In this document: piece after piece, positions 7,216 through 45,150 of the stretch
How the letters are laid out: each line of letters opens with the position of its first letter
Position numbering within the stretch: position 1 is the first letter of the stretch
DNA from: a virus
Strand: one strand, 5' to 3'
IMG/VR virus record: IMGVR_UViG_3300013137_000011
Coordinates: 1 to 64,000 of that record
DNA: 64,000 nucleotides
Position numbers and translations under genes: made by a program
The notes under the pieces: generated by a model
What the model was told of the DNA's origin: nothing
The model's input: only the letters and a program-made list of their open reading frames with translations
The model's database searches: none

Positions 7216-7221
7216 AAAGAT

Positions 7222-7293
7222 AGATCCGTAGCCAAGTGGTAAGGCAGGAGACTTTGGATCTCCCATTCGTAGGTTCAAATCCTACCGGATCTG
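7222..7293 (+). tRNA. tRNA-Gln(TTG)
   Basis: AGATCCG/CGGATCT acceptor, GGAGA-CTTTGGA-TCTCC anticodon arm, GGTTCAAATCC T arm; no encoded CCA. Confidence 0.95.
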
Positions 7294-7301
7294 ATAAACT
7301 A

Positions 7302-7384
7302 GCCGAGATGATGGAATGGCAGACATTTCTGACTTAAAATCAGATGGGAGATATCCCGTGCGGGTTCAAGTCCCGCTCTCGGCA
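7302..7384 (+). tRNA. tRNA-Leu(TAA)
   Basis: GCCGAGA/TCTCGGC acceptor, TCTGA-CTTAAAA-TCAGA anticodon arm, long variable arm, GGTTCAAGTCC, A73. Confidence 0.95.
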
Positions 7385-15124: not shown

Positions 15125-16285
15125 ATGGATAGTGCAGAACAGTTTTTCGGAGATATAGATAGTGTACTGGATGAATTTTCAGAATTAAAAGCAAAGACAC
15201 AAGAAACTCCTAAACAGGAAGATCCTCCTTCTGTAAATAGTATTGAAAATGATATTTCTGATTTATTCGAGGGTTCACAAAAGATGGAATCTATTGAACC
15301 TGAGATTAAATCTCAAGAAATGAATCCAGAAATTAAACCTGAACAAAAAATTGAAAAGAAGCAAGAAGAAATAATTAAACCTAAATCAGTAGACAAAGAT
15401 AATAAATTTCCTCTTGATTATATATCACCAAAAGACATAGACAGTATTATATATCCTGAACTTAAAAAAGAGTTAAAGAATGTATTAGATTCTGAGCAAT
15501 TTAAACAGTCTGTCCAAAAAGCAAAAACCAAATCCGAGAAAGGATATGACACAACTGGAATATCGTCATATTTCTTGATGGATCGTCTTAACGATGTTGT
15601 TGGTCCTTCTCATTGGAGGACTAATATTTTATCTGTCGAAACCAAAGAAAGTTCAACAGGTAGATCCTATCGTGGAATTGCAAGTGTAATTCTACAAATT
15701 GGAAATACGTTTGAATTGGATAGTAGTAAGTCTGTATGGAAATTTTATCCGGTATGGGAATCAAAACCCAATACTGGAACTTCTATCAATATGACGGAAG
15801 GAGATGCGCTCAAGGGTTGTGTTACGAACGCATTTAAGAAGGCTTGTGCAGATATTGGACTTGGAGCAGAGGCTTACCGTGGAACACTTGATGATGATCT
15901 TGAGGTTTTTGAGGAACAGGAAAAACAAAAGAAGAAGGAAGAGCAGACTCAGATAATTAATCAACAAGTCAAACTAAACACAGGAGAAGCAACGATACAA
16001 ACAAAGAACACTAAGCCCGATGTTATGGCTCAGTTTAAGCCTTGGGTTTCAGATAATCCAGATACTGAACACAATCGTGCAGGACTCTTAAAGACTGTTC
16101 ATAATTTATATCATGCTCTTAGCCTCAACTCAACACAATATCTGGATTGGGTAATTAGGAAAAAGGATGAGTTAAAACTCGTCGTTGTTCCTGAAGATGA
16201 AACTCAGATCGCATTTGAACCTCTCCAAAAGATTTACAATGCTTTGTATGAAACATACAAGAAAAAGATAGAATCCGCAAAGTGA
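15125..16285 (+). CDS. Rad52/Rad22-family single-strand annealing protein (Sak-like)
   Basis: MDRLNDVVGPSHWR and ALKGCVTNAFKKACADIGLG..AY motifs. Confidence 0.85.
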   Translation: MDSAEQFFGDIDSVLDEFSELKAKTQETPKQEDPPSVNSIENDISDLFEGSQKMESIEPEIKSQEMNPEIKPEQKIEKKQEEIIKPKSVDKDNKFPLDYISPKDIDSIIYPELKKELKNVLDSEQFKQSVQKAKTKSEKGYDTTGISSYFLMDRLNDVVGPSHWRTNILSVETKESSTGRSYRGIASVILQIGNTFELDSSKSVWKFYPVWESKPNTGTSINMTEGDALKGCVTNAFKKACADIGLGAEAYRGTLDDDLEVFEEQEKQKKKEEQTQIINQQVKLNTGEATIQTKNTKPDVMAQFKPWVSDNPDTEHNRAGLLKTVHNLYHALSLNSTQYLDWVIRKKDELKLVVVPEDETQIAFEPLQKIYNALYETYKKKIESAK

Positions 16286-20921: not shown

Positions 20922-21752
20922 ATGAATATATTCAAGTATAAAACAGACAAAACATTCGTAAAATTCTTTAATTGCGACAGTTTTGATATTGCTCCTAAAA
21001 TTCCCAATGAGAGTATTGATATGGTATGTACTGATATACCATATGGAGAAACTTCAAAAGAAGGCAGAATGATGCTTCATAAGGATGGAGTAAAATTGAG
21101 TTCAAATATAATGGCTTCATATGATGTATTTAAAGATAAGGCAGAATTTGATAACTTTGTTATAAGATTTCTAAAACATGCATACAGATTGCTTAAAAAA
21201 TCAGGATCTATGTACGTTTGGATGGGAAGGGAGTATGCAGGATATTTCATAAGACTTGCAGAATCAATAACAAATAGACTAGACGATTCAGATAAAGATG
21301 GATCTGGATTTTATAGCCATAATGTAATTATATGGGAAAAAACAAATCCAGGATTTTCTCAATTTAAATCAGAATGGTTATCGGCATATGAAGCATGTGT
21401 ATATATGACTAAAGATTTCAAAAAACCTTTAGTATGGAATTGGCAAGGACACGATATTATGCAAAATGTATGGACAATAGGAAATGCATTTAAAAAGGAA
21501 ACAGAACATCCAAACGAAAAACCGATAGAATGTTTTTCTAGACCTATATTATCAAATACAAATCCTGGAGATGTCATTTGGGATCCATTTGCAGGATCTG
21601 GATCATGTCTTAGGGCCTGTGAAGTAACAGGAAGAAGTATTATTGCATCTGAAATAAAATCCGATTATTTCAAACAAGCCTGCAAAAGATTAGGTAAACC
21701 AACCAACGTAGGAAATTCGGCAGAATCCTTGCTTGATGATATGTTCGCATAA
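20922..21752 (+). CDS. N4-cytosine/N6-adenine DNA methyltransferase (beta class)
   Basis: TDIPY (DPPY variant), IIWEK, HPNEKP, DPFAGSGS. Confidence 0.9.
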   Translation: MNIFKYKTDKTFVKFFNCDSFDIAPKIPNESIDMVCTDIPYGETSKEGRMMLHKDGVKLSSNIMASYDVFKDKAEFDNFVIRFLKHAYRLLKKSGSMYVWMGREYAGYFIRLAESITNRLDDSDKDGSGFYSHNVIIWEKTNPGFSQFKSEWLSAYEACVYMTKDFKKPLVWNWQGHDIMQNVWTIGNAFKKETEHPNEKPIECFSRPILSNTNPGDVIWDPFAGSGSCLRACEVTGRSIIASEIKSDYFKQACKRLGKPTNVGNSAESLLDDMFA

Positions 21753-31615: not shown

Positions 31616-32002
31616 ATGGAAAAACTGACGGAAATGACCATCGAAGAATTTGAGGTGCTTTATACGGAACATCTCAAATGGCTGGAGGACAAGTCACAGG
31701 GGAAACGGCTTTTGTTGCGAAACGTCCTTATAAAATTCGATCTGATTGATCGGAATCTTTCGTACAGCCGCTTCGTGCGCAGCAGTTTCGAGGATAGCCG
31801 CTTCGAGCGCAGCAGTTTCGAGCGCAGCAGTTTCGAGCGCAGCAGTTTCGTGCGCAGCAGTTTCGTGCGCAGCCGCTTCGAGGATAGTAGCTTCAAGCGC
31901 AGTAGCTTCGAGGATAGCCGCTTCGAGGATAGTAGCTTCAAGCGCAGTAGCTTCGAGCGTAGTAGCTTCGTGCGTAGTACAGGCATAATCTGGATGGATT
32001 AG
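31616..32002 (+). CDS. pentapeptide-repeat protein
   Basis: HLKWLED...G.R N-terminus, then 14 S[S/R]F[V/E/K][R/D] repeats. Confidence 0.8.
   Translation: MEKLTEMTIEEFEVLYTEHLKWLEDKSQGKRLLLRNVLIKFDLIDRNLSYSRFVRSSFEDSRFERSSFERSSFERSSFVRSSFVRSRFEDSSFKRSSFEDSRFEDSSFKRSSFERSSFVRSTGIIWMD
31766..31975 (+). repeat. 14 x 15-bp coding tandem repeat
   Basis: Units such as AGCAGTTTCGAGCGC and AGTAGCTTCAAGCGC. Confidence 0.9.
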
Positions 32003-32712: not shown

Positions 32713-33303
32713 ATGAGTAATATGATAAAATTTCCAGACAAAAAATACAACATTATCTATATCGACCCACCTTGGAAATATAATTTAAGAAACAATCCGA
32801 ACACAAGATTTGGTTCAGGTATGCATATATATCCTGGAATGGAATTGCATGAAATTAAACGACTTCCAATTCAAACAATAGCGGATGAAAATTGTCTACT
32901 TTTTATGTGGACAACACCACCACAACTGATAAATCAAATATGGATTCCTGATCTGTGGGGGTTTGAGTATGTAACTAAAGCCTTCTGTTGGATAAAAATG
33001 AACGCTAGAAACGAAAAGTATAGGTTTGGAAACGGTTACTATTGTAAATCTAATACAGAAGATTGTTATTTGTATAGAAAAGGAAAAATACAAGTAATTA
33101 ATAATTCAATATCACAAATCATAGACAAAGAATTTCCTTCAGACATTATAACTCATATTAGAGATCATAGCAGAAAGCCAGATGAAGTTAGAGATAAGAT
33201 TGTTCAATTAGTTGGAGATTTACCAAGAATAGAACTTTTTGCACGAGGTCAATATCTAGGATGGGATGTATGGGGAAATCAGACATTTGAAACTATATAT
33301 TAG
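32713..33303 (+). CDS. MT-A70-family adenine methyltransferase
   Basis: IYIDPPWKY, LFMWTT, WGFEY, HSRKP, RIELFAR, WGNQ. Confidence 0.93.
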   Translation: MSNMIKFPDKKYNIIYIDPPWKYNLRNNPNTRFGSGMHIYPGMELHEIKRLPIQTIADENCLLFMWTTPPQLINQIWIPDLWGFEYVTKAFCWIKMNARNEKYRFGNGYYCKSNTEDCYLYRKGKIQVINNSISQIIDKEFPSDIITHIRDHSRKPDEVRDKIVQLVGDLPRIELFARGQYLGWDVWGNQTFETIY

Positions 33304-35760: not shown

Positions 35761-36798
35761 ATGAAAAACGTACTATTAGCGGGAGCCTATGGTTATAACA
35801 ATTTTGGCGATGATCTTGTAAGAGATATGATACTCAAATCACTAGACTCTTCAGGTATAAATATTAAATGGATGTCTCCTGGTATGAAAAATCCATTTGG
35901 AAATGAAAAAATAGATTTCTCTATTTTAGGCGGCGGAGGAACACTATATGATGATCCAATCGAGAACCTAAATAATTATATAGAACTACTAAATCTTGGA
36001 GAGAAAAAAATTATTTTCAACATAGGAATACAGGGTATTATAACAATGAAAGGATTTGAACTATTCAAAAAGATGCTCGATTCTACATGTTTTATAAGTG
36101 TTAGAGATACAACATCTAAAAATATAGTTGAATCTTCTGGAAAACAATGCGAATTGGGATCGGATCCAGGATTTATATTTGAACATTTTGAAAATAAAAA
36201 TACTGAGTCAATAGGTAAAACTGTTGGATTAATATTACATGGATATGAAAATAGTGAAAACGATTCAATGATAAATAGAATTAAAGATTCTGTAAAAGAA
36301 AAATATATTAATGAAATGATAAATTGTGTAAAAGAACTTCAGAATATTGGATATAACATTACACTATTTGTAATGTCAAACGATGATCTTAAATTAGAAC
36401 ATTATATTCAATATAAATGCAATTTATCATGTAAATCAATAATATATGATGGTATGAACAGAGAAGAAGTTTCAACAGAACTTAAAAAATGTGAATATAT
36501 AGTTACAGGAAGATATCATGGAGCAATAATGGCTATGATATATGATATTCCATTTGTTATGATAGGAAAATATTATTGTCTGAATTTCATTACTACAAAA
36601 CACCAAAGGCTACAATCTGAAATAGGAGTTAATTCATTATTAATTGATGTTTCAGATGTAAATATAAATCAAATTGCATTACGACTTAAAATAAATTCTA
36701 TAGATAAAGTAATGAATTCAATCAGAGAATATAAAGATTTTCAACAAAAACTTTATATGGATTCTTATCTTAAACTAAAGAAGATTATTTTGGAATAA
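35761..36798 (+). CDS. polysaccharide pyruvyl transferase family protein
   Basis: GAYGYNNFGDD, GGGGT, SVRD..S, DPGF, GRYHG. Confidence 0.9.
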   Translation: MKNVLLAGAYGYNNFGDDLVRDMILKSLDSSGINIKWMSPGMKNPFGNEKIDFSILGGGGTLYDDPIENLNNYIELLNLGEKKIIFNIGIQGIITMKGFELFKKMLDSTCFISVRDTTSKNIVESSGKQCELGSDPGFIFEHFENKNTESIGKTVGLILHGYENSENDSMINRIKDSVKEKYINEMINCVKELQNIGYNITLFVMSNDDLKLEHYIQYKCNLSCKSIIYDGMNREEVSTELKKCEYIVTGRYHGAIMAMIYDIPFVMIGKYYCLNFITTKHQRLQSEIGVNSLLIDVSDVNINQIALRLKINSIDKVMNSIREYKDFQQKLYMDSYLKLKKIILE

Positions 36799-36811
36799 CA
36801 ATAGAAATAGC

Positions 36812-36866
36812 AAAACACTCAAAAGAAGTTTCCTAATAAACAAGAAAAATTCAATTTGAGTGTTTT
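36812..36866. terminator. bidirectional terminator-like hairpin between the convergent arms
   Basis: AAAACACTCAAA/TTTGAGTGTTTT 12-bp inverted repeat. Confidence 0.6.
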
Positions 36867-36995
36867 ACGACCAATGTTTATCAACAATTTCATGTATCCC
36901 TAGACTTAGGGAATCTGTAGCAATTTTGTTGATAAGGTTTTGGAACCTTCTCGAAGGAGGGAGGCTGGAGGTCTTGTCCGGTCTTTCTCTTCGGT
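36812..36995 (-). ncRNA. putative promoter-driven sRNA with a CCUCC-rich segment
   Basis: Consensus promoter upstream, no convincing ORF, two long hairpins, ends in a terminator-like stem. Confidence 0.55.
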
Positions 36996-37001
36996 AAAGC
37001 C

Positions 37002-37030
37002 ATTATAACAGGAAGGTAAAAGAAAGTCAA
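37002..37030 (-). promoter_or_regulatory. sigma70 promoter with extended -10
   Basis: Minus strand TTGACT-17 nt-TATAAT preceded by TGn. Confidence 0.8.
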
Positions 37031-37067
37031 GAGGTTCAGGGACATTTGATTATCTCCTGAACCTCTT
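37029..37067. terminator. terminator hairpin at the end of the late operon, carrying the GAGATAA..TCAAA motif
   Basis: AAGAGGTTCAGG/CCTGAACCTCTT stem with T-rich tails on both strands. Confidence 0.7.
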
Positions 37068-37089
37068 TTGTTTTGCTCCCAGGTTTATA

Positions 37090-37260
37090 TTATTTACTAA
37101 GTACCCCTGATATTACATTTACTGCTATATCTATAGATTTGATCAGTTTTACTGAACATTCTTCATACGCACCATTTGGAGATTTTATCATCTGATCTGT
37201 AACTTCTATGGCCTTATCTACGGCGATATGTGCCATAGCAATCTTGTCTCTTTTCTTCAT
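37090..37260 (-). CDS. small hypothetical protein, absent from the ORF track
   Basis: MKKRDKIAMAHIAVDK..., AAGGAGG SD. Confidence 0.6.
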   Translation of the reverse strand: MKKRDKIAMAHIAVDKAIEVTDQMIKSPNGAYEECSVKLIKSIDIAVNVISGVLSK

Positions 37261-37275
37261 TGGCAAAAATCCTCC

Positions 37276-37572
37276 TTAATCGGGATCTAAGATGTCTTTA
37301 CATTTACTTATCACACCGACAAGTTTATCTGTTAGTTCATTATGTTTCTCCATTAATCTACATTGACATTCCATGGTTGCCTGAGTTTTTGTTGATGCTT
37401 CTGCTTGTTTTTCTGCCAACAAAATAACTCTATCTGTTAATTGATCCCTTCTAAGAATCATTCTGAACACTAGGATTACTAGGATTAGTACAACAAATGC
37501 AAGAACTCCTGGTACTCCATTATTCAAGAAATTTTCTATCGCTTCTTTTGTTACTGTTATGAATCCTAACAA
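37276..37572 (-). CDS. holin-like membrane protein
   Basis: One TM helix GVPGVLAFVVLILVILVF plus coiled coil, at the end of the virion module. Confidence 0.55.
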   Translation of the reverse strand: MLGFITVTKEAIENFLNNGVPGVLAFVVLILVILVFRMILRRDQLTDRVILLAEKQAEASTKTQATMECQCRLMEKHNELTDKLVGVISKCKDILDPD

Positions 37573-37603
37573 TCCGATATCCCCACCTTTCTGTATATTT
37601 TAT

Positions 37604-38950
37604 TTACGAGTGGGTTGCCCAACCAATACCAAGTGCCGTGGATCCGCTAACGATCAAGAACTGGCCCTCAGATCCAGGATCGAGGATACCAGGAACTCCA
37701 GAGGCAGAGAATCCAATAATACAGCCCTTTGCGGTTCCAATAGACTTTGCGATAAGAGTAGTAAGATCCTGATCTCCGGTGTTAACGCCAGAGGTAGAAA
37801 CCAATCCATTGAGAGCAGTATCAATCTGTGCATGAGTGTTGGTGCCAATATCAGTAAGTGAGGTATGAGATTTGGTAGTGATATCTGCAATATCACTAGT
37901 TCCCTTGTCTACATCTGCCCAAATAGGGCGAGTCTTACCGAAAGTTCCAGCAACAGCATCATAGGAACTGAAGAACTGATTGCTAGTACTAGAAGTGCTT
38001 ATCGGAGTAACCTGATCTCCAGTATTAGTACCAGAAGTCGATACCAATCTCGTAAGAGCAGTATCAATCTGTGCGTGAGTATTAGTACCAATATCAGTAA
38101 TTCCAGTATGCGAAGGTTGCGCTTTACCAAAAGTACCAGCAACAGCATCGTAGGAACTAAAAAATTGATTGGAAGTAGATGACGTACTTACAGGAGTTAC
38201 CTGATCACCAGTATTGGTACCTGAAGTAGAAATTAATCTAGTCAAAGCAGTATCAATCTGTGCATGGGTATTAGTACCGATATCAGTTAATGCTGTGTGT
38301 GATTTGGTAGTAATATCTGCGATACTACTAGTTGCCTTATCAACATTAGCCCAAGTTGGTCTAGCTTTGGTAAATGCACCAGTAACTGCATTATACTCAG
38401 TAAAGAACTGATTAGAAGTTGCAGAAGTACTTACAGGAACAACCTGATCTCCAGTATTAGTACCAGAAGTATTACTAACGACGGTTCTTTGTGCATCTGT
38501 AATATATCTTCTATTAGTAGAATCAGGAATATCTGCAGTAGTGACATCCTCATCTAACTCATGAGTAATAAGAATGGTTCCAGAATCATTCTTAACTCCA
38601 TCTAGATCCCAAGTATAATTAGGACGAAGAGTTACGTCATAAAGAACTCTCGTTCCACCAGCATCAACGATCTTAACATAGAATCTAACATTAGCAGTAT
38701 CACGATTTTCGATAAGAATGTTTTTAACTACAATCGTAATTTTTGCATTAGTAGGGGCAGGTACAATAGTAACAGGAGTAGCTCCTGCCAACTGATACGT
38801 TTTGCTCTTCTCCTCTCTAAGCGCAGTAGACTCAACCTTACCAGATTTTTCTTCATACACAACAGTACAATCTGGCTGAGTAGTAGCTGGAGCCCCAGAC
38901 ATCACTACCTGGATATATTCAGTAGTCTTTTCAAGTGCAATTTCTCTCAT
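37604..38950 (-). CDS. tail fibre-like repeat protein
   Basis: 3x DIGTNTHAQIDTAL, 4x SG[T/V]NTGDQ, Ser/Thr-rich; six [V/I]STS motifs. Confidence 0.75.
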   Translation of the reverse strand: MREIALEKTTEYIQVVMSGAPATTQPDCTVVYEEKSGKVESTALREEKSKTYQLAGATPVTIVPAPTNAKITIVVKNILIENRDTANVRFYVKIVDAGGTRVLYDVTLRPNYTWDLDGVKNDSGTILITHELDEDVTTADIPDSTNRRYITDAQRTVVSNTSGTNTGDQVVPVSTSATSNQFFTEYNAVTGAFTKARPTWANVDKATSSIADITTKSHTALTDIGTNTHAQIDTALTRLISTSGTNTGDQVTPVSTSSTSNQFFSSYDAVAGTFGKAQPSHTGITDIGTNTHAQIDTALTRLVSTSGTNTGDQVTPISTSSTSNQFFSSYDAVAGTFGKTRPIWADVDKGTSDIADITTKSHTSLTDIGTNTHAQIDTALNGLVSTSGVNTGDQDLTTLIAKSIGTAKGCIIGFSASGVPGILDPGSEGQFLIVSGSTALGIGWATHS

Positions 38951-38962
38951 TTCAATCCTCCT

Positions 38963-39058
38963 TTATCGTACTTCGAGTTGTTTCATAAATGGCTTCGCCG
39001 GACAATTAAGTTTAGTAGAAGCCTTTTTCTTTTTACTAGAAGATTTTTTTCCTGCCAT
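38963..39058 (-). CDS. 31-aa highly basic peptide, absent from the ORF track
   Basis: MAGKKSSSKKKKASTKLNCPAKPFMKQLEVR with perfect SD AAAGGAGGTGA. Confidence 0.6.
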   Translation of the reverse strand: MAGKKSSSKKKKASTKLNCPAKPFMKQLEVR

Positions 39059-39116
39059 TCATCTCACCTCCTTTGCTATTTATTAACCCTGCCACTATAT
39101 TATTTACAACCTAAAA

Positions 39117-39905
39117 CTATCTTCTCTCATCTATTAAATCAGAACTAGGATCTGGTTTAACTGATTTTATAACATAACAAAATGCATACTTAGGACCAAC
39201 TAATCCTCCTAATGTCCTGAGAAGATTTATAACTTCCTCATCATTATCAGTAAGATGTCTAGCACCATCTAATCCAGGAACACCCCAATAAGGCATAAGA
39301 TGAATTCCTTTAGCCGAATCTATATAAAAACCTGTATTAAATAACATCTCTTTAGTCTCATCATAGGTTAATTCTTTGGTATGATCTTGGCAACATTTAA
39401 AATCTCTATATCCAAGAGCCCTATTCATAATAAGATGAAGACTATTTCTATTTGGAGAAGTCAAAAGAAATATCCCATTAGGTTTAAGAACTCTAAATGC
39501 TTCAGATATCATTTTTTCTGGATTCCCAACATGTTCTAATACTTCTTTAGCAACAACTATATCAAATGTATTATCTAGAAAAATTAGATTACAAGCATCC
39601 ATTTGCATAAACTCTGCTTCAGGATATTTTTTTTCAAACTTATTCCTAGCAATTGACATAGCAACTTCAGAAATATCAGTACAAACAATACTTTTACATC
39701 CTTTATATGAATGAAGAGATCCACATCCATCACCAGATCCAAGATCAAGTATGTGTTTTCCTTCAAATGGAACGCACATTTTTCTTGCTGTAGAATCAAT
39801 ATCTATTCCACGAACTCTATCCCATAAAAATTCTTGATTGTATGGTTTACCATTAGAGTATAAATCATTCATCATATCCCTACTATTACGTTCCATTATA
39901 ACCAT
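39117..39905 (-). CDS. class I SAM-dependent methyltransferase
   Basis: ILDLGSGDG, DIS, FDIV...EVLEH, RVLKPNG...TSPN. Confidence 0.92.
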   Translation of the reverse strand: MVIMERNSRDMMNDLYSNGKPYNQEFLWDRVRGIDIDSTARKMCVPFEGKHILDLGSGDGCGSLHSYKGCKSIVCTDISEVAMSIARNKFEKKYPEAEFMQMDACNLIFLDNTFDIVVAKEVLEHVGNPEKMISEAFRVLKPNGIFLLTSPNRNSLHLIMNRALGYRDFKCCQDHTKELTYDETKEMLFNTGFYIDSAKGIHLMPYWGVPGLDGARHLTDNDEEVINLLRTLGGLVGPKYAFCYVIKSVKPDPSSDLIDERR

Positions 39906-40597
39906 CCCTCCTCTGTAATAAGATAATTTTTCATAGCATCATTATTAAACGGAATAACAAATTTCTCTTGCCCTGGTGTACCTCCCCACTTTTTAATATA
40001 ATATCTTTGAAATATATCTGCAAAGATATTCATATTAAGAGTATTTCTCATTGGATCGGATGCAATAGTTTGGCTTCCTTCATGGTGAATTGGAAGTTTT
40101 TCTGTATATATTGCATGATATCCAGCAAGTTTGGCTCTATATATCTGATCGTTATCAGAGAAGTAGTTTGGGAGGTTTGGATCTACAAGTCCAATCTTTT
40201 TTATAGCACTAATACGCCATGCTATTACATACCATCTATCTGAATAGATCCACCAATTAGGATCCTCAAATGCTTTTTCTACACGTTCCATAAATTTCTT
40301 TAAAACATCGTCGCCAAGAAAGAATATATCAGAGTGTGTCCAAAACATAACATCATCTTCATTGTCAATACACTCTTTATAATACAGATTAAAGTTATCT
40401 GTAGATGATATATGCACTTTTGGTCTAATAATCTTTGGATTGAATCCAAATATTTTTTCTGGTTCTTTAAGATCAAAATTATCAGACACATCTGTTATAA
40501 CCAGTTTGTCATAAACCTCATGAACATTATAACTCTTAACTGCTTTTATAAGTAAATCTAATCTACTTTTGTGCATTATTTTGAATGACCATTTCAT
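39896..40597 (-). CDS. GT2/GT-A fold glycosyltransferase
   Basis: HSD (DxD-like), IG..D..LPNYFSDND..YRAKLAG, HHEGSQT. Confidence 0.8.
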   Translation of the reverse strand: MKWSFKIMHKSRLDLLIKAVKSYNVHEVYDKLVITDVSDNFDLKEPEKIFGFNPKIIRPKVHISSTDNFNLYYKECIDNEDDVMFWTHSDIFFLGDDVLKKFMERVEKAFEDPNWWIYSDRWYVIAWRISAIKKIGLVDPNLPNYFSDNDQIYRAKLAGYHAIYTEKLPIHHEGSQTIASDPMRNTLNMNIFADIFQRYYIKKWGGTPGQEKFVIPFNNDAMKNYLITEEGWL

Positions 40598-40603
40598 AAT
40601 TAA

Positions 40604-41482
40604 TTACCTCCAAGACCTATTAGTAAACATTGATGGAAGATTTCCATAAAAAGTAGCAGTACCACTATCAACACTATGAACTGCATTTGTATAATGATAT
40701 CCAATTGTAGGAAGCCAAAATAGTTGTGATGTTAGTGCTATAACATAACTATTTCCACAATCCTCCTGGGTTCCATCTGGCCCATCTGCCCTATCAACTC
40801 CGATACTCCATCTAGTTGGACCAGGATTACCCCCTGTTGTTTGAACAAAAGCAGTACAATCATGTGTATTTTCAGTAATTCCTACTACAAACTCATGTTT
40901 CCAATTAGCATTACCACCATTTGCTGCTGCTGGAGTCGAAGAATTATATGTCCATGATGCAGTAGTATCTTGTTGAGATGATATAACTAATATTTTATTA
41001 TAGTAATTATGCACAAATCTTTTCGCATTAGTGTTTTGAAATTTACTTGCAGCATCAACATGAACAGTACCAATATATCTTCTGGTTGTTGCTCCAGATT
41101 TAGATAGTACTCCATCCTGATAAACTAATGCTGTTGCTCTTGTAGCAGTACTAGCCCATGCAAGTTTTTCTAACGTAGGAGTTCCATTATCATCATAACA
41201 AAATATATCATGAGGTGTATTAGCAGTAAATCCAGAATTAGATATTGACAGTTCGGTAAAATGCCTAAGATGCCAAAAAGTTCCATCATATAAAGATATA
41301 AAATCTCCTATATATGGTGTAAAATATAGAGAAGTTTTGTCTGATTCATCGGCAGATGTAACAACAGGAGAACCACTAGTTAGTGTCAATCTTCCATTAA
41401 CAGTACTATTAGTGACAATAGAAAGGACTTCTTCTTCAGTAGCCATCTCTGGATTAAGAGATTGTTTTCCAGGTTTTCCCAT
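40604..41482 (-). CDS. tail fibre/receptor-binding-like structural protein
   Basis: NGRLTLTSGSPV, LYFTPY.G, TRRYIGT, FVHNYYN: phage fibre-associated pattern. Confidence 0.6.
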   Translation of the reverse strand: MGKPGKQSLNPEMATEEEVLSIVTNSTVNGRLTLTSGSPVVTSADESDKTSLYFTPYIGDFISLYDGTFWHLRHFTELSISNSGFTANTPHDIFCYDDNGTPTLEKLAWASTATRATALVYQDGVLSKSGATTRRYIGTVHVDAASKFQNTNAKRFVHNYYNKILVISSQQDTTASWTYNSSTPAAANGGNANWKHEFVVGITENTHDCTAFVQTTGGNPGPTRWSIGVDRADGPDGTQEDCGNSYVIALTSQLFWLPTIGYHYTNAVHSVDSGTATFYGNLPSMFTNRSWR

Positions 41483-43500
41483 TACTTTTTCCTCCTTATA
41501 TCAATCCAAAGTTGATCTCCAGAGTGATGTTTGATTACTGGTTTACAATAAATAATTTCATATCCAAATACATTTGCAAGATGCTCTAAACTACTTTTGT
41601 TATAAACAATGGTATGTTCACCAACAAAAGAAGCATTTAGGTATATCCAATTATTATTTCTTTCATTCCATTTATCTGTATCTGGAGTTATAATTGAAAT
41701 TACTCCATTTTCTGTTAACAACTCTTCAAGTTTCTCGAATAGTTTTATAGGATCATGTATATGTTCAATAACATGATTCATTAATATTAAATCATACTTA
41801 TATTTATTGTCAAAGTTTTCTACTGTTTTATCATATACATTTATTTCTAATTTATCATAAGTTAGTTTATAGTTGTCTCCGGTTTCTAATCCATCTGATA
41901 TCCATCCTAACTTTTCCATTTTATCTACTATAGTTCCTGCTCCACAACCAACATCAAGAAACCTTCCTATATTTCCATAATGTTTATTAAATCTATTGTT
42001 TAACTCAACAGCCAACTCAGATTCACGTTTTCTATAATCTTTTGTAAGATAACATCCAGTATACGATTTATCGTCATAGTATTTAGAACCATCTACAATA
42101 ATATCTGTATATATTGCTTCACAGTTCTTACATCTCAAGAATTTAATGTAACTTCTCCTCATTACAAATTCACATTCAGTATCTCCACATACAGGACAAT
42201 ACTCACGATATCCAGTATATGTTTCATCTTCTATATCTTTTAACTCAACAAATGGAGTTGAATCCATTGGAACTAAATCAATAGTTTTCTGTATTTCTTT
42301 CATTATTTCATCAATTTTAAATTGTTTCATACAATGTGGATAATTTGGGATCCCTCCTGTATCTAAACATGAGTGTCCGTGCAACATGCATGGACCACAT
42401 TTATCAGTTTTTTGAATCCATCTTCCATATTTGTAATATCTCATTCTAAGATCACCATCAAAAGGACCATATAAACCTAAACAAGGTTTATCAAATGCTC
42501 CTGCAATATGAACACAACAACTATCTAGACCAACAACAAATTCACAATTCTTAATAAATAAAATAATTTCTCTAAGAATAAGTTGATCTGGAAATATGAT
42601 CTTCTTATCAATATCATCAAACACCTTACTATCAAATCCAATCTTATTTCCACATTCCTCGCATCTTACTATGGTGTAGTGTATTCTTGGTCCTACATTT
42701 AAATCAACAATCTTTCCACAAGAACTACACTTTTTTTCTTGATAATATTTATATATAGACTTATCTCCAATCATTATAACATAATATCCATACTTTTCAA
42801 CAATTTCTCTAGCCAATTGAATCATCTTCGGTATTTCAAGATTTCTTAACATAGATGACGTTTCATACTGAAGTACAACAAACTTTTCTTTATTCATATC
42901 TATTTTATATATCTTTTTAAGATTCTTCTTAAATACTTTCATCTCTTTATCTGTAACATATAATGTTGGATTTTTCTCTTCGTCACTCATTTCATTAATT
43001 GGTGCGCCGACACAATCTAAGAATATATCATAAACATTATAAAGTTGTGCAAATGGATTTAATGTTATTTCTCCGTCAAAACAGAATACCATATCATATT
43101 CATCGGTAGAAATGTTATGGTAAACTTGTTTTGTTTCTTCTATATTTAACAGAGTTAAATCTGTATTATTCATGAACACATCTGCTCCACGAGCAGAAGA
43201 AGATACTGTAATCATGCAATTTGGATATTGTTTATGAAACCATTTGATCGCAGGCGTCATAAAAAGAACATCACCAACACCACCATGATGTATAAATAAC
43301 GCAGTTTTTGGATCTTGATGTACCGATCTTTTAGTGCCAATTGGAGTTATATCTTTAAATCCAAGATGTCTAATAAAATAATTCTTCCAATATTGTTGTT
43401 CTACAAATACAATACCATTAGAAAATCTATGTTCATATGCTTTTCCTGTTGCGTTTGAAGGAAATTTTTTACTTTTATTAGAATCAAGAATCCATGTCAT
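41482..43500 (-). CDS. GT9 (heptosyltransferase-like) glycosyltransferase fused to a class I SAM methyltransferase
   Basis: GGVGDVL; GLDS..VHIAGAFDKPCLGLYGP; Zn-ribbon CxxC pairs; FLDVGCGAG; HVIEHIHDP. Confidence 0.9.
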   Translation of the reverse strand: MTWILDSNKSKKFPSNATGKAYEHRFSNGIVFVEQQYWKNYFIRHLGFKDITPIGTKRSVHQDPKTALFIHHGGVGDVLFMTPAIKWFHKQYPNCMITVSSSARGADVFMNNTDLTLLNIEETKQVYHNISTDEYDMVFCFDGEITLNPFAQLYNVYDIFLDCVGAPINEMSDEEKNPTLYVTDKEMKVFKKNLKKIYKIDMNKEKFVVLQYETSSMLRNLEIPKMIQLAREIVEKYGYYVIMIGDKSIYKYYQEKKCSSCGKIVDLNVGPRIHYTIVRCEECGNKIGFDSKVFDDIDKKIIFPDQLILREIILFIKNCEFVVGLDSCCVHIAGAFDKPCLGLYGPFDGDLRMRYYKYGRWIQKTDKCGPCMLHGHSCLDTGGIPNYPHCMKQFKIDEIMKEIQKTIDLVPMDSTPFVELKDIEDETYTGYREYCPVCGDTECEFVMRRSYIKFLRCKNCEAIYTDIIVDGSKYYDDKSYTGCYLTKDYRKRESELAVELNNRFNKHYGNIGRFLDVGCGAGTIVDKMEKLGWISDGLETGDNYKLTYDKLEINVYDKTVENFDNKYKYDLILMNHVIEHIHDPIKLFEKLEELLTENGVISIITPDTDKWNERNNNWIYLNASFVGEHTIVYNKSSLEHLANVFGYEIIYCKPVIKHHSGDQLWIDIRRKK

Positions 43501-43569: not shown

Positions 43570-43995
43570 CTATTGGATAGTAAGAGTAAATACAGAACTA
43601 GTGCTAGGTGGGGCGGCCCCAAGAGTAAATACAACCGCATCGGTAGATGCAAAGTAAACCTGATTCATATCGGTTGCATCAGTAGCATCAGTAACATTAT
43701 CGTTACAAAAAATACCATCAACCATAGGATGAACGCCAAACGCAGTAGGAGTCAGCGTTCCAGTTGCAGTAAATACCTTATTAGTTCCATTACATAATCC
43801 ACCTGCCATACCCATCACGGATGGCTTACCAGATACTCCCGCTGCAAGATGCGAAGCCTGAATAACTCCTGCGCTGATATGACTACCAACAACGGCGTCA
43901 GCAGAGATATGGCTACCAACTACGGCGTTATCGGCAATCAGAGTACCACCAACAGAACCCGCAAGACCTCTTGCTCCTAAATCAATTCTTCCCAT
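43570..43995 (-). CDS. small virion fibre/decoration-like protein
   Basis: AVVGSHIS repeats, GTNKVFT, FTLGAAPP; GC-richer codons. Confidence 0.6.
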   Translation of the reverse strand: MGRIDLGARGLAGSVGGTLIADNAVVGSHISADAVVGSHISAGVIQASHLAAGVSGKPSVMGMAGGLCNGTNKVFTATGTLTPTAFGVHPMVDGIFCNDNVTDATDATDMNQVYFASTDAVVFTLGAAPPSTSSVFTLTIQ

Positions 43996-44016: not shown

Positions 44017-45150
44017 TTATTTCCACCATCTTAATACTATCTTATCTCCTTCAGAGATAGAACCTAGACCGCCTATATCAAATGTAATCGATCTATCATT
44101 TGTTTCGGTATATTCATCACCAAGCCAACAAAATGAACTTTGCCATTCAACTTGCATTGAATCATCCCCAACAGTATATACGCTACTAGTGCTTACTATT
44201 CCAGATGCTGCCTGTGCAGCAGATATGATTACTCTATCACAATAATGTTGATGAGTAGCACTTGTCGATACTGTTATTATCTTTCCAGATTGTGATATAT
44301 TAGATGATCCTGCACCAATAATGGTAATATTTCCATTTATATAATCATAACCATCTGCTTTTATTCCAGTTACATCAGCAGAAGTTGAAAAATATACTGC
44401 ATCTCCTACATGAGTTATTCCTACAGAACCAAGTCCGATAAATGTAAGATCACCAGTTATTTCATCTCCATCTACATTAATTGACTGGACACCTGCAGAT
44501 GTTGAAACTTCGTTTATTTGAGTGTATAACCAATCAAGAGTGTCCTCTAATGTTGAGGTTCCTGAAGTTGATACAATATTAGGATCGTAATAATCTAATT
44601 TTCCAGTAGTTATTCCTGCGTCTGTTGCTACATGACGATTTCTAATTGTTAATCCAGAAATTGAGTCGATTGTGAGAAGGGGACCGTCTTGGGCCGTCCC
44701 TGTGTGTTTATGTCCACTAGAGGCGTCAAAGGAGCCATATATGGAGGAGAGATATGCCTTTACCGTGGCGAATGTATACTGAGGATCCGTTCCAAGGGTT
44801 GACTGAATTTGTGAAATCGCATCCTGAAGTTGGTTAATGTCATCAGCAACAATGTAATCGCCATCACAAAGAATAGTTATTCCTACAGTAGAATTAGCAC
44901 TAGATGAATTAAACACTATTTCATTGTTTTCATAATCTATATAAAACCTATCAGATAACGTAGGAGGATTACTTGACGTTGAAATATAACCTGGTATTGT
45001 AACAACTGAAGATGTAGAAACACTATGATGTAAATGTACTATAAAATCTGTTGCTGGAATAACATAAGAATCGGTAACGGCTGTTCCACCATCAATCTTA
45101 TTCACTCTATTATAGAATATATCTAATGTACCTGGAAATAATGATAACAT
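44017..45150 (-). CDS. tail tip/fibre-associated structural protein
   Basis: ADDINQLQDAI..IQ.TLG.DP, GHKHTG; seven [V/I/F]STS motifs. Confidence 0.7.
   Translation of the reverse strand: MLSLFPGTLDIFYNRVNKIDGGTAVTDSYVIPATDFIVHLHHSVSTSSVVTIPGYISTSSNPPTLSDRFYIDYENNEIVFNSSSANSTVGITILCDGDYIVADDINQLQDAISQIQSTLGTDPQYTFATVKAYLSSIYGSFDASSGHKHTGTAQDGPLLTIDSISGLTIRNRHVATDAGITTGKLDYYDPNIVSTSGTSTLEDTLDWLYTQINEVSTSAGVQSINVDGDEITGDLTFIGLGSVGITHVGDAVYFSTSADVTGIKADGYDYINGNITIIGAGSSNISQSGKIITVSTSATHQHYCDRVIISAAQAASGIVSTSSVYTVGDDSMQVEWQSSFCWLGDEYTETNDRSITFDIGGLGSISEGDKIVLRWWK

What the first reader, a model, noticed from the sequence alone, without database searches (positions are those of the whole stretch)
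35761..43500. Glycan-building and glycan-tailoring enzymes interleaved with tail-fibre genes
Seen: in late-operon order, fibre/tip genes, GT9+methyltransferase (41482-43500), fibre (40604-41482), GT2 (39896-40597), methyltransferase (39117-39905), fibre (37604-38950), with overlapping or near-abutting stops and starts. A pyruvyltransferase-family gene is the last gene of the opposite arm. Established: GT9 enzymes transfer ADP-heptose in LPS core synthesis, and some actinobacteriophages glycosylate virion proteins with their own GTs. Inference: late co-expression points to virion decoration with a possibly methylated and pyruvylated glycan, rather than DNA or host-surface modification. No nucleotide-sugar synthesis genes are in the window, so donors would come from the host or be encoded elsewhere.
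Basis: partly seen in the sequence, partly recalled or inferred. Interest (0 to 1): 0.8.

Follow-up and report, generated by a model that had tools for sequence, protein, structure and literature searches.

The report
Phage sugar-adding enzymes among tail-fibre genes
An uncultured lake-water phage carries sugar-transferring, sugar-methylating and pyruvate-adding enzymes packed between its tail-fibre genes, which most likely means it sugar-coats its own fibres, something shown by experiment so far only for mycobacteriophages and giant algal viruses.

Summary
On the minus strand, tightly packed and co-directional with the tape-measure and baseplate genes, lie a 377-aa fibre-like protein, a 141-aa fibre-like protein, a 672-aa GT9+methyltransferase fusion, a 292-aa receptor-binding protein, a 233-aa GT-A-fold enzyme, a 262-aa SAM methyltransferase and a 448-aa repeat fibre, then a holin-like gene. 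A pyruvyltransferase ends the opposite arm. A fifth transferase (GT4 type) lies outside the window in what appears to be the head-gene region.

All five enzymes lack membrane segments. The 78.8-kb record holds no nucleotide-sugar synthesis genes, integrase, C5-cytosine methylase or ThyA-type enzyme.

The fusion belongs to an uncharacterised family of about 30 full-length cluster representatives. Its methyltransferase half most resembles NDP-sugar C3-methyltransferases. Its GT9 half carries a conserved Cys4 finger, as in TibC, but it is neither a TibC-family (BAHT) member nor an LPS heptosyltransferase equivalog. Relatives sit inside virion gene modules of two other phage lineages, but also in replication modules and bacterial contexts.

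A [V/I]-S-T-S-[G/A/S] motif is concentrated in two fibres.

Best reading, about 50%: cytoplasmic glycosylation of the phage's own fibres. The target is unproven.

The scan has noted similar candidate systems on other DNA.

The parts
35761..36798 (+). Polysaccharide pyruvyltransferase-family protein (345 aa). It is the last gene of the plus arm and converges on the late arm.
   Evidence: Pfam PS_pyruv_trans at 103.7 bits, E 2e-29. The nearest NCBIfam model is CsaB at 80 bits, below its 213 cut-off. No TM segment. No match in cultured phages.
37276..37572 (-). Holin-like small membrane protein (98 aa) that marks the end of the late arm.
   Evidence: One strong hydrophobic segment, KD19 3.05 at residues 22-40. 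Its position is directly after the last fibre gene. The function is inferred.
37604..38950 (-). Repeat-containing tail fibre (448 aa), Ser/Thr-rich, with 8 STS tripeptides of which 6 fit [V/I]STS[G/A/S]. It is a candidate acceptor.
   Evidence: Translation and repeats. C-terminal residues 354-447 are 33% identical to the 'minor tail protein' of Microbacterium phage Arete. Motif counts against shuffles give p<2e-4, but the copies lie in internal repeats.
38963..39058 (-). Possible 31-aa basic ORF with its own Shine-Dalgarno site, filling the only large gap in the cluster.
   Evidence: Read directly from the sequence. It is unverified as a gene.
39117..39905 (-). Class I SAM-dependent methyltransferase (262 aa). 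Its substrate cannot be determined from the sequence.
   Evidence: Pfam Methyltransf_11 E 2e-22. phrog_22502 'methyltransferase' at 3.5e-21. PDB and NCBIfam give only generic small-molecule O/N-methyltransferases, all below cut-offs. No TM segment.
39896..40597 (-). GT-A-fold glycosyltransferase-like protein (233 aa).
   Evidence: ESM Atlas model pTM 0.84, with TM 0.84-0.85 to clusters named glycosyltransferase / GT family 2. phrog_29879 'galactosyl transferase' at 5.5e-9 over residues 131-218. No Pfam GT2 hit.
40604..41482 (-). Receptor-binding / tail-fibre tip protein (292 aa) with two beta-sandwich domains. It has no STS motif.
   Evidence: AF2 pLDDT 90.2. Foldseek matches include the phi812 spike knob, the lactococcal phage 1358 RBP, TNF/C1q-like lectins and many annotated tail fibres in BFVD. 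29% identity over 86% of its length to the Pam5 'tail spike'. More than 500 homologues, and 301 IMG/VR contigs carry relatives.
41482..43500 (-). Fusion enzyme (672 aa) with five parts: an N-terminal beta domain (1-60); a GT9 GT-B domain (65-411) with an inserted zinc ribbon (C258/C261/C280/C283) and a Cys4 finger (C368/C371/C378/C390); a linker; a zinc ribbon (C435/C438/C457/C460); and a SAM methyltransferase (472-672).
   Evidence: Pfam. AF2 pLDDT 92.4, pTM 0.91. VIA Z 25.0 to 3tov, 24.2 to WaaF, 21.8 to WaaC and 21.5 to TibC for the GT9 half. Z 26.7 to MtmC and 25-26 to TcaB9/KijD1 for the methyltransferase half. Conserved residues come from alignments A2-A4.
43570..43995 (-). Small fibre-like protein (141 aa).
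   Evidence: Weak PHROG tail-fibre hits: phrog_892 at 1.7e-4 and phrog_27577 at 8.8e-4.
44017..45150 (-). Acidic Ser/Thr-rich fibre-like protein (377 aa) with seven [V/I/F]STS[G/A/S] motifs in non-repetitive contexts. It is the strongest candidate acceptor.
   Evidence: Motif observed 7 times against 0.05 expected in 5000 shuffles. Codons at the motifs vary. The single homologue, at 53% identity in BLASTP (59% in the MAFFT alignment), keeps 4 of the 7 motifs. No family hits. The fibre role is inferred from position and composition.

Best explanation
The cluster is a phage-encoded, cytoplasmic protein-glycosylation toolkit that decorates the phage's own tail-fibre proteins as they are made late in infection.

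Proposed steps, all inferred:
1. Soluble transferases (the GT9 domain of the fusion, the GT-A enzyme and the GT4-type enzyme encoded in the head module) use host-made nucleotide sugars to build a short O-linked glycan on Ser/Thr of fibre proteins.
2. The most likely acceptors are the 377-aa and 448-aa proteins that carry the [V/I]-S-T-S-[G/A/S] motif.
3. The methyltransferase domain fused to the GT9 domain, whose fold is that of NDP-sugar C3-methyltransferases, methylates the sugar that the GT9 domain handles.
4. The separate methyltransferase, and possibly the pyruvyltransferase, tailor the glycan further.
5. The basic accessory elements of the fusion (N-terminal beta domain, zinc ribbon, Cys4 finger) would hold the acidic fibre substrate, by analogy with the iron finger of TibC.

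Shown: the gene identities, folds, order and packing, the solubility of the enzymes, the conservation of the family and the contexts of its relatives.

Not shown: expression timing, the sugar donor, the acceptor, and any glycan.
For: 1. Position. The enzymes are co-directional and tightly packed, with overlaps of 1 and 10 nt and a gap of 6 nt. They lie between fibre/RBP genes, downstream of the tape measure and upstream of a holin-like gene.

2. Recurrence in other phages.
- Full-length homologues (about 31% identity) sit in siphovirus loci L009, L010, L014 and L017. In L009 the homologue lies between the major head protein gene and the tail-fibre gene. In all four loci it lies after the putative tail tube and chaperone genes, and in L009/L010 directly before the putative tape measure.
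- A GT9...MT protein plus a second GT9 sit between head genes and the tail sheath in myovirus locus L008.

3. Solubility and missing partners. None of the five enzymes has a membrane segment. The record has no NTP_transferase, Epimerase, integrase, C5 DNA methylase or ThyA-type enzyme. This fits direct cytoplasmic transfer rather than a lipid-carrier pathway, lysogenic conversion or 5hmC/5hmU DNA glycosylation.

4. Intact enzyme. G76-D77, R219, D326 and S327/H331 are invariant or nearly invariant across the family.

5. Sugar methyltransferase fold. The methyltransferase half scores Z 26.7 (rmsd 2.3, 235 aligned) to the sugar C3-methyltransferases MtmC/TcaB9/KijD1, against Z about 19-20 for generic methyltransferases. 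The match includes their N-terminal Cys4 zinc domain.

6. Protein-targeting precedent within the GT9-like fold. TibC uses a Cys4 iron finger in its C-lobe and an N-terminal beta domain to bind its beta-helix substrate (PMC4358343). This family has a Cys4 cluster conserved at 90% or more in the C-lobe. The TibC alignment starts at residue 20, inside the N-terminal beta domain.

7. Charge. The acceptor-side N-lobe is acidic in all ten aligned family members, net -6 to -14. This is unfavourable for anionic lipid A-Kdo or DNA.

8. Candidate acceptor motif. [V/I/F]STS[G/A/S] occurs 7 times in the 377-aa protein and 6 times in the 448-aa fibre. Late proteins hold 22 STS in 9.5 k residues, against 2 in 10.6 k residues of early proteins. 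Codons at the motifs vary.

9. Published precedents.
- Mycobacteriophages glycosylate capsid and tail tube with their own glycosyltransferases, and cluster O phages have an O-methyltransferase next to three glycosyltransferases (PMC12363180, PMC11600133).
- Chlorovirus A064R is a GT-GT-methyltransferase fusion acting on the capsid glycan (PMC7826918).
Against: - No glycan, expression or virion data exist. Only DNA runs from lake water hold the sequence.
- Relatives of the GT9 enzyme at 25-28% identity lie in phage replication modules (L003-L005, L007). Full-length relatives also occur as lone genes in bacterial-looking DNA (L015, L016). The family is therefore not tied to virions.
- None of 80 loci (1 Mb) of other phages carrying the same receptor-binding protein has homologues of these enzymes.
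- STS is not an outlier among tripeptides once the repeat fibre is removed: 14 observed against 4.4 expected, half of them in one protein.
- The two STS-rich proteins share a weak homologous module, E 0.016.
- The motif is absent from the other phages that carry the fusion.
- The fusion does not match the TibC-type family model. Its fold is no closer to TibC than to WaaC/WaaF.
- The fibres are acidic, as is the N-lobe of the GT9 domain.
- The pyruvyltransferase lies on the other arm.
Confidence: 0.5

Rival explanations
1. Host-envelope modification. The GT9, GT-A and GT4 enzymes, methyltransferases and pyruvyltransferase remodel LPS core, O-antigen, capsule or a secondary cell-wall polymer of the infected cell. 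The purpose would be to block superinfection, or to stop progeny from sticking to debris. The genes travel with the fibre genes because receptor and receptor-binding protein co-evolve.
For: - GT9 is canonically an LPS-core family. The best sequence and fold matches of the GT9 half are WaaF, WaaC and a Veillonella GT9.
- The nearest model for the pyruvyltransferase is CsaB, which pyruvylates a cell-wall polymer.
- PHROG files the GT-A and GT4 relatives under 'moron / host takeover'.
- 80 loci of other phages with the same RBP lack homologues of the enzymes, so the enzymes look accessory.
- From general knowledge, glycan-modifying conversion genes sit next to tailspike genes in some temperate phages.
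Against: - No integrase in the record.
- No membrane-embedded Gtr-type, Wzx/Wzy or acyltransferase-type proteins. All five enzymes are soluble.
- Scores are far below every LPS heptosyltransferase cut-off, for example 37.5 against 134.6 bits.
- The N-lobe is acidic where LPS enzymes must face anionic lipid A-Kdo (the basic-lobe expectation comes from general knowledge).
- Placement deep inside the late virion arm, just before the holin, would leave little time for export of a modified polymer (an inference).
Confidence: 0.2
2. DNA hypermodification. One or more of the transferases glycosylate modified bases in phage DNA, as in the recently described phage pathways that put heptose, Kdo and other sugars on 5hmC. 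The methyltransferases would tailor the sugar.
For: - Phage glycosyltransferases of both GT-A and GT-B fold hypermodify DNA, including with heptose. Such clusters can lie near structural genes (bioRxiv 10.1101/2023.12.21.572611).
- Distant GT9 relatives (P0003 type) sit between helicase, primase, ribonucleotide reductase and DNA polymerase genes in L003-L005 and L007.
- The GT4-type gene lies about 3 kb from a DNA methyltransferase and an HD-domain gene.
- The record is only about 60% complete.
- There is a sub-threshold TAGT hit in the Rad52-like protein.
Against: - The record has no C5 cytosine methylase and no ThyA-type hydroxymethylase.
- No Tet_JBP hit was found, although the control for that search was silent.
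- The phage relies on N6/N4-type methylases and ThyX.
- The GT9 N-lobe is acidic, not the positively charged groove described for DNA glycosyltransferases.
- The fold hits are GT9 enzymes, not T4 beta-GT.
Confidence: 0.1
3. Unrelated accessory genes. The enzymes are independently acquired morons that landed in the recombination-prone fibre region. They act on different, non-virion substrates such as small molecules, host proteins or nucleotide sugars, so there is no single pathway.
For: - The RBP gene is a widely exchanged module with 40-50% identity to hundreds of proteins, while neighbouring genes have few or no relatives. This shows the region is mosaic.
- The stand-alone methyltransferase resembles only generic small-molecule methyltransferases.
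- Full-length fusion homologues occur alone in bacterial-looking DNA.
Against: - Five glycan-type enzymes in one 78.8-kb record, three of them within 4.4 kb with overlapping reading frames, is more than scattered morons would give.
- The fusion of a GT with a sugar-type methyltransferase argues for one glycan product.
- GT9-MT genes recur inside virion modules of three phage lineages.
Confidence: 0.15

Closest known systems
Mycobacteriophage virion glycosylation (Che8, Corndog, Myrna; Freeman et al. 2023, as described in PMC12363180 and PMC11600133)
   Same: The phage encodes its own glycosyltransferases and a methyltransferase. The proposed target is the phage's own virion proteins, and the donor sugars come from the host.
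   Different: - The enzyme families differ. tblastn found no match for the GT9-MT fusion, the GT-A enzyme or the pyruvyltransferase in 50,697 phage records.
- The host is not an actinobacterium as far as can be told: 31% GC, lake water.
- The genes are woven into the tail-fibre block.
- The proposed acceptors are fibres, not capsid or tail tube.
- A pyruvyltransferase is present.
- No experimental evidence exists here.
TibC/Aah bacterial autotransporter heptosyltransferases (BAHT; PDB 4RAP/4RB4; PMC4358343)
   Same: - GT9-like GT-B fold, Z 21.5 with 301 residues aligned.
- An extra N-terminal beta domain.
- A Cys4 metal finger inserted in the C-lobe.
- A cytoplasmic enzyme acting on Ser of beta-rich repeat proteins, which here is only the hypothesis.
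   Different: - No match to the BAHT family model at E 0.1 or below, and none in PDB profile searches.
- The fold score is tied with WaaC and lower than WaaF/3tov.
- The Cys spacing differs: C-x2-C-x6-C-x11-C here against C-x2-C-x15-C-x11-C in TibC.
- This protein has an additional zinc ribbon and a fused methyltransferase.
- The oligomeric state is unknown.
Chlorovirus PBCV-1 A064R (GT-GT-methyltransferase fusion acting on the capsid glycan; PMC7826918)
   Same: A virus-encoded multidomain protein joins sugar transfer and sugar methylation for a virion glycan.
   Different: A064R has two rhamnosyltransferase domains of another fold family and an O-2 methyltransferase. It belongs to a eukaryotic virus and acts on an N-linked glycan. 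No homology was tested or claimed.
NDP-sugar C3-methyltransferases TcaB9, KijD1, MtmC
   Same: The N-terminal Cys4 zinc domain plus the SAM domain superpose at Z 25-27, rmsd 2.2-2.3 A. The profile E-value is 7e-9.
   Different: The alignment covers chain residues 6-267 of enzymes of about 405-420 residues, so their C-terminal sugar-nucleotide-binding domain is absent here and is replaced by fusion to a GT9 domain. The chemistry (C- or O-methylation) is unknown.
LPS core heptosyltransferases WaaC/WaaF/WaaQ (CAZy GT9)
   Same: Pfam GT9 above its cut-off. Fold Z 21-24. The G-x-G-D and D-S-x3-H motifs are conserved.
   Different: - Far below the equivalog cut-offs.
- About 90 extra residues of inserts plus 60 N-terminal residues.
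- An acidic N-lobe.
- A fused methyltransferase.
- Encoded in a phage virion module.

Membership tests
CAZy GT9 / Pfam Glyco_transf_9 | Sequence match above the curated cut-off | tested here: met
   30.9 bits (cut-off 22) on the protein. 32.4 bits in the six-frame search. Only profile positions 173-215 are matched.
CAZy GT9 / Pfam Glyco_transf_9 | GT-B two-lobe fold superposable on solved GT9 enzymes | tested here: met
   Z 25.0 to 3tov (297 aligned, rmsd 3.1), Z 24.2 to 1psw and Z 21.8 to 2h1h over residues 58/65-411.
CAZy GT9 / Pfam Glyco_transf_9 | Conserved catalytic Asp in the N-terminal G-x-G-D loop and the D-S/T...H motif of the C-lobe | tested here: inconclusive
   G76, D77 and D326 are invariant and S327 and H331 nearly so across 10-150 relatives. 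Equivalence to WaaC Asp13/Asp261 and TibC Asp110 is inferred from position, not from a residue-level superposition.
LPS heptosyltransferase I/II/III (NCBIfam equivalogs) | Score above the equivalog cut-off | tested here: not met
   37.5 against 134.6, 31.6 against 170.2 and 28.8 against 185.3 bits.
BAHT (TibC/Aah protein heptosyltransferases) | Sequence membership in the family model | tested here: not met
   No BAHT-type model appears among the NCBIfam hits at E 0.1 or below. TibC is absent from the phmmer and profile PDB searches.
BAHT (TibC/Aah protein heptosyltransferases) | Cys4 metal finger in the C-lobe and an N-terminal beta domain | tested here: inconclusive
   A Cys4 cluster (C368/C371/C378/C390) is conserved at 90% or more, and beta strands occupy residues 3-33. 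The TibC alignment spans 20-411. The spacing differs from TibC C339/342/358/370, and structural equivalence of the fingers was not checked residue by residue.
BAHT (TibC/Aah protein heptosyltransferases) | Dodecameric ring and heptosylation of Ser in a beta-helix substrate | not testable with these tools
   This needs biochemistry or structure determination.
NDP-sugar C3-methyltransferases (TcaB9/KijD1/MtmC) | N-terminal Cys4 zinc domain plus class I SAM domain | tested here: met
   Z 25-26.7, rmsd 2.2-2.3 over model residues 428/432-672. C435, C457 and C460 are invariant and C438 is conserved at 90% or more.
NDP-sugar C3-methyltransferases (TcaB9/KijD1/MtmC) | C-terminal domain that completes the sugar-nucleotide site | tested here: not met
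   The alignments end at chain residue about 267 of 404-419, and the protein ends at residue 672.
Pfam Glycos_transf_2 (GT2), for ORF 39896-40597 | Sequence match to the family model | tested here: not met
   No hit on the protein at E 0.01 or below, and none in the six-frame search at E 1 or below.
GT-A fold glycosyltransferases, for ORF 39896-40597 | GT-A fold | tested here: met
   ESM Atlas model pTM 0.84. TM 0.72-0.85 to clusters named glycosyltransferase / GT2, several of which have PF00535 in 45-100% of members.
Polysaccharide pyruvyltransferase (PF04230) | Sequence match above the cut-off over the whole domain | tested here: met
   103.7 bits against 25.3, profile positions 1-277 of 280. 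It is not a CsaB equivalog: 80 against 213 bits.
Phage virion glycosylation systems (mycobacteriophage type) | Glycan covalently attached to virion proteins | not testable with these tools
   No isolate exists. Only DNA runs from lake water hold the sequence.
Phage virion glycosylation systems (mycobacteriophage type) | Phage-encoded glycosyltransferases with a methyltransferase, located among virion genes | tested here: met
   The published arrangement is described in PMC11600133.
Gtr-type / O-antigen seroconversion modules | Integral-membrane flippase and glucosyltransferase, and a temperate life style | tested here: not met
   No TM segments in the enzymes. No tyrosine integrase in the record. 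The record is about 60% complete.
Phage DNA sugar-hypermodification clusters (C5-MT + 5mYOX or ThyA homologue + GT) | A base-activating enzyme (C5 methylase with TET-like oxygenase, or a ThyA-type hydroxymethylase) in the genome | tested here: inconclusive
   PF00145 and PF00303 are absent, with working controls. PF12851 is absent, but the control was silent. About 40% of the genome is not held.

The most novel reading that the evidence does not exclude
The 672-aa protein founds a new class of protein O-glycosyltransferase. It would be a GT9 enzyme that recognises beta-rich phage fibre proteins through its Cys4 finger, zinc ribbon and N-terminal beta domain, transfers a sugar (possibly heptose) to Ser/Thr in a [V/I]-S-T-S-[G/A/S] sequon, and methylates that sugar with its fused TcaB9-like domain. 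It would have arisen independently of the TibC family. Together with the GT-A, GT4, methyltransferase and pyruvyltransferase genes it would give a methylated, pyruvylated (anionic) glycan coat on the tail fibres of a phage that is probably not an actinobacteriophage.
Probability: 0.25. Interest if true: 0.8.

Novelty: new variant of a known kind. Interest (0 to 1): 0.6.

Why it matters
Virion glycosylation by phage-encoded enzymes has been shown by experiment only in mycobacteriophages, where it alters antibody recognition. If freshwater phages of other hosts also coat their fibres with tailored glycans, several things follow.
- Fibre glycans could affect host range, resistance to proteases and grazers, and particle stickiness.
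- Receptor-binding predictions made from sequence alone would miss a layer.
- The GT9 + sugar-methyltransferase fusion is an uncharacterised family: about 30 full-length cluster representatives, within 434 representatives at E below 1e-30.
- That family has a high-confidence model and clear test substrates encoded next to it, so the question can be tested directly by co-expression and mass spectrometry.

Tried and rejected
The contigs of the closest homologues (P0002, 47% identity to the fusion; P0159, 53% to the 377-aa protein) could therefore not be read.
- Single-protein scans of IMG/VR with the fusion, the 746-aa baseplate protein and the RBP found no close relatives.
- The 30-sequence alignment was too diverse for locus scans.
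- The genome-contig scan with A3 found nothing. That scan is pattern-based, so this is weak evidence of absence in cultured species.
- tblastn against 50,697 phage records found nothing for the fusion, the baseplate protein, the pyruvyltransferase or the GT-A enzyme.
- TibC was never retrieved by sequence, and no BAHT model hit appeared. I therefore dropped the idea that the enzyme is a TibC-family member and kept it only as an analogy.
- Promoter and terminator consensus scans over 35.5-45.3 kb were at or below chance: 51 against 52.9 and 2 against 3.8. No transcription-unit claim rests on them.
- No RNA holder was listed among the sequencing runs.
- The STS motif is not found in L008-L010, L014 or L017 proteins, with at most one hit. 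It is therefore not a general sequon of the enzyme family.
- A survey of 80 RBP-relative loci found no co-occurring enzyme homologues. It used phmmer with single sequences, so distant glycosyltransferases would be missed.
- The Freeman et al. 2023 paper itself is not held. It is cited only through papers that describe it.
- The pyruvyltransferase has no PDB sequence relative.

Full report
**What the window is.**
- The window is the first 64 kb of a 78.8-kb IMG/VR virus record. The record is linear and about 60% complete by CheckV. Its GC content is about 31%.
- The sequence is held by several lake-water metagenome runs.
- Two arms converge near 37 kb.
- The plus arm (1-36.8 kb) carries replication and DNA-metabolism genes:
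  - an SNF2 helicase, an AEP primase-helicase, a sliding clamp and RuvB-like and RuvC proteins;
  - Rad52 and ThyX;
  - N6/N4 and MT-A70 DNA methylases.
- The minus arm runs from beyond 64 kb down to 37.6 kb and carries virion genes. These include a 2446-aa tape measure and a weak major-head-protein match just outside the window.
- The phage has no cultured relatives. tblastn of several of its proteins against 50,697 phage records found nothing.

**The observation.** In transcription order after the tape measure and baseplate-like genes, the minus arm carries:

| Coordinates (minus strand) | Product |
|---|---|
| 44017-45150 | 377-aa acidic Ser/Thr-rich protein |
| 43570-43995 | 141-aa protein with weak tail-fibre PHROG hits |
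| 41482-43500 | 672-aa GT9 + methyltransferase fusion |
| 40604-41482 | 292-aa receptor-binding protein (RBP) |
| 39896-40597 | 233-aa GT-A-fold protein |
| 39117-39905 | 262-aa SAM methyltransferase |
| 38963-39058 | possible 31-aa basic ORF |
| 37604-38950 | 448-aa repeat fibre |
| 37276-37572 | holin-like one-TM protein |

- These assignments rest.
- The junctions are a 1-nt overlap, a 6-nt gap and a 10-nt overlap, so the enzymes and fibres are packed as one block.
- Co-transcription is an inference from this packing. Consensus promoter and terminator scans were not above chance.
- The pyruvyltransferase (35761-36798, Pfam E 2e-29) is the last gene of the opposite arm.
- A fifth transferase, a GT4-type enzyme (Glycos_transf_1; phrog_2170 at 4e-28), lies at genome 68256-69524 on the minus arm. 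Its flanking genes look like head genes but are unidentified.

**Are the 'fibres' fibres?**
- The 292-aa protein has more than 500 homologues at about 40-50% identity, and 301 IMG/VR contigs carry relatives.
  - Its AlphaFold2 model (pLDDT 90) has two beta-sandwich domains.
  - The model matches the knob of the phi812 spike, the RBP of lactococcal phage 1358, TNF/C1q-like lectins and many annotated tail fibres.
  - The 'tail spike' of Pseudanabaena phage Pam5 is 29% identical over 86% of its length.
- The C-terminus of the 448-aa protein matches a minor tail protein of Microbacterium phage Arete.
- The 377-aa protein has one homologue only. Its fibre role rests on position and composition.

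**The fusion enzyme.**
- It is rare. The word-indexed search found only 7 hits in the 5.8-billion-protein set.
- An exhaustive profile search found 434 cluster representatives at E below 1e-30. About 30 of them are full-length (about 650 aa) and 25-47% identical end to end.
- All named members come from metagenomes, in clusters of 1-3 sequences.
- The model is confident: pLDDT 92.4, pTM 0.91.
- Residues 65-411 form a GT9 GT-B domain: Z 25.0 to Veillonella GT9 3tov, 24.2 to WaaF, 21.8 to WaaC and 21.5 to TibC.
- G76-D77, R219 and D326 are invariant, S327 and H331 nearly so. The enzyme therefore looks active.
- Relative to LPS enzymes it has three extras:
  - an N-terminal beta domain;
  - an inserted zinc ribbon;
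  - a Cys4 cluster (C368, C371, C378, C390) conserved in at least 90% of 150 relatives.
- TibC, the GT9-like enzyme that heptosylates serine residues of autotransporter adhesins, also has an N-terminal beta domain and a Cys4 iron finger in its C-lobe, which binds the beta-helix substrate (PMC4358343).
  - That is an analogy, not membership. The protein does not match the TibC-type family model or TibC by sequence.
  - Its fold score to TibC is tied with that to WaaC.
- It is not an LPS heptosyltransferase equivalog either: 37.5 against 134.6 bits.
- Residues 428-672 superpose on MtmC, TcaB9 and KijD1 (NDP-sugar C3-methyltransferases) at Z 25-27 and rmsd 2.2-2.3 A.
  - The match includes their N-terminal Cys4 zinc domain.
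  - Generic methyltransferases score Z 19-20.
  - The C-terminal sugar-nucleotide domain of those enzymes is missing here.
- The natural reading is that the methyltransferase acts on the sugar handled by the fused GT9 domain.

**Where relatives sit.**
- Full-length homologues (about 31% identity) occur in siphovirus contigs L009, L010, L014 and L017.
  - In L009 the gene lies between the major head protein gene and the tail-fibre gene.
  - In all four it lies after the putative tail tube and chaperone genes.
  - In L009 and L010 it lies directly before the putative tape measure.
- In myovirus contig L008, a 794-aa GT9...methyltransferase protein and a second GT9 lie between head genes and the tail sheath.
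- Three phage lineages therefore carry this enzyme type inside the virion module.
- Against a uniform reading:
  - P0003-type relatives (25-28% identical, with a different C-terminal domain) sit among helicase, primase, ribonucleotide reductase and polymerase genes.
  - Two full-length relatives are lone genes in bacterial-looking DNA (L015, L016).
  - Of 80 loci (1 Mb) from other phages carrying the same RBP, none has homologues of any of the enzymes. The interleaving is a feature of this phage, not of the RBP family.

**What the cluster lacks.**
- None of the five enzymes has a membrane segment.
- The 78.8-kb record has no NTP_transferase, NAD-epimerase, tyrosine integrase, C5 DNA methylase or ThyA-type enzyme, each with working controls.
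- It has no Tet_JBP hit either, but the control for that search was silent.
- This argues against a lipid-carrier polysaccharide pathway, lysogenic conversion and the known 5hmC/5hmU DNA-glycosylation routes. The caveat is that about 40% of the genome is not held.
- The acceptor-side N-lobe of the GT9 domain is acidic in all ten aligned family members, net -6 to -14. The accessory elements are basic.
- From general knowledge, LPS heptosyltransferases and DNA glycosyltransferases present basic surfaces to their anionic acceptors. This is a crude net-charge argument, not a surface calculation.

**A candidate acceptor motif.** I followed a lead from earlier notes of this scan and tested the tripeptide STS myself.
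- Late proteins hold 22 STS in 9.5 k residues, against 2 in 10.6 k residues of early proteins.
- [V/I/F]STS[G/A/S] occurs 7 times in the 377-aa protein (0.05 expected) and 6 times in the 448-aa fibre. There are single copies in four other virion proteins.
- Codons at the motif vary, so the signal is at the protein level.
- Several points limit this:
  - The copies in the 448-aa fibre lie in internal repeats.
  - The two rich proteins share a weak homologous module, E 0.016.
  - Without the repeat fibre, STS is only 3-fold enriched and is not the top tripeptide.
  - The one homologue keeps 4 of the 7 motifs, in regions that are conserved anyway.
  - The motif is absent from the other phages with the fusion.
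- The motif fits a sequon but does not prove one.

**Verdict.**
- The best explanation, at about 0.5, is cytoplasmic O-glycosylation and glycan tailoring of the phage's own fibres.
- It parallels mycobacteriophage virion glycosylation (glycosyltransferases plus an O-methyltransferase; PMC11600133, PMC12363180) and the chlorovirus GT-GT-methyltransferase fusion A064R (PMC7826918). The enzyme families and the location differ here.
- The rivals are host-envelope remodelling (0.2), unrelated morons (0.15) and DNA glycosylation (0.1).
- I file it as a new variant of a known kind.
- The same theme has been noted repeatedly by this scan on other DNA. Those notes are unchecked and were not used as evidence.

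Noticed in passing
L002:12728-13429 (genome 76728-77429, + strand): A 233-aa protein with a Sigma-70 region 2 domain (E 4e-7). This looks like a phage-encoded sigma factor, which could drive late transcription of the virion arm.
   Followed up: no
L002:4256-5524 (genome 68256-69524, - strand): A fifth glycosyltransferase (GT4 type; Glycos_transf_1 at 32 bits, phrog_2170 at 4e-28). It lies between unidentified genes that look like head genes, about 3 kb from a DNA methyltransferase (phrog_757) and an HD-domain gene.
   Followed up: partly
window 15125-16285 (+): A Rad52/22-family protein whose C-terminal part gives a sub-threshold hit to the TET-associated glycosyltransferase family (TAGT, 20.9 against 27.5 bits). 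This is probably noise, but it bears on the DNA-modification rival.
   Followed up: no
window 40604-41482 (-): The RBP is 40-50% identical to hundreds of proteins, and 301 IMG/VR contigs carry relatives, mostly from genomes of about 40 kb. Almost every other gene tested in this phage has no relatives. This is a clear case of a horizontally exchanged receptor-binding module.
   Followed up: partly
L003, L004, L005, L007 (about 9.8-11.5 kb in each locus): Proteins of about 580 aa with a Cys-finger GT9 domain and a different methyltransferase-like C-terminus. They sit between replicative helicase, primase, ribonucleotide reductase and DNA polymerase III alpha genes of large phages. Their function is unknown, and DNA or nucleotide modification is possible.
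   Followed up: no
L015:8034-9998 and L016:9989-11944: Full-length GT9-MT homologues that are lone genes in bacterial-looking DNA (MreB, MurA and ATP synthase genes nearby), each with a radical-SAM gene within 2-3 kb.
   Followed up: no
window 38963-39058 (-): A possible 31-aa lysine-rich ORF with a GGAGG site 6 nt upstream, in the only sizeable gap of the cluster.
   Followed up: no
window 7221-7384 (+): Two adjacent tRNA genes, tRNA-Gln(UUG) and tRNA-Leu(UAA).
   Followed up: no
window 31616-32002 (+): A pentapeptide-repeat protein (128 aa, E 2.5e-10) in the early arm. This is the fold of DNA mimics such as Qnr/MfpA.
   Followed up: no
window 20922-21752, 32713-33303 and L002:8648-9295: Three separate DNA methyltransferases (N6_N4_Mtase, MT-A70 and phrog_757) plus ThyX. 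The phage seems to rely on methylation rather than bulky base modification.
   Followed up: no
P0016 (853 aa, metagenome): One family member carries a further C-terminal domain after the GT9-MT core that resembles a second, TylF-like methyltransferase (alignment A3).
   Followed up: no
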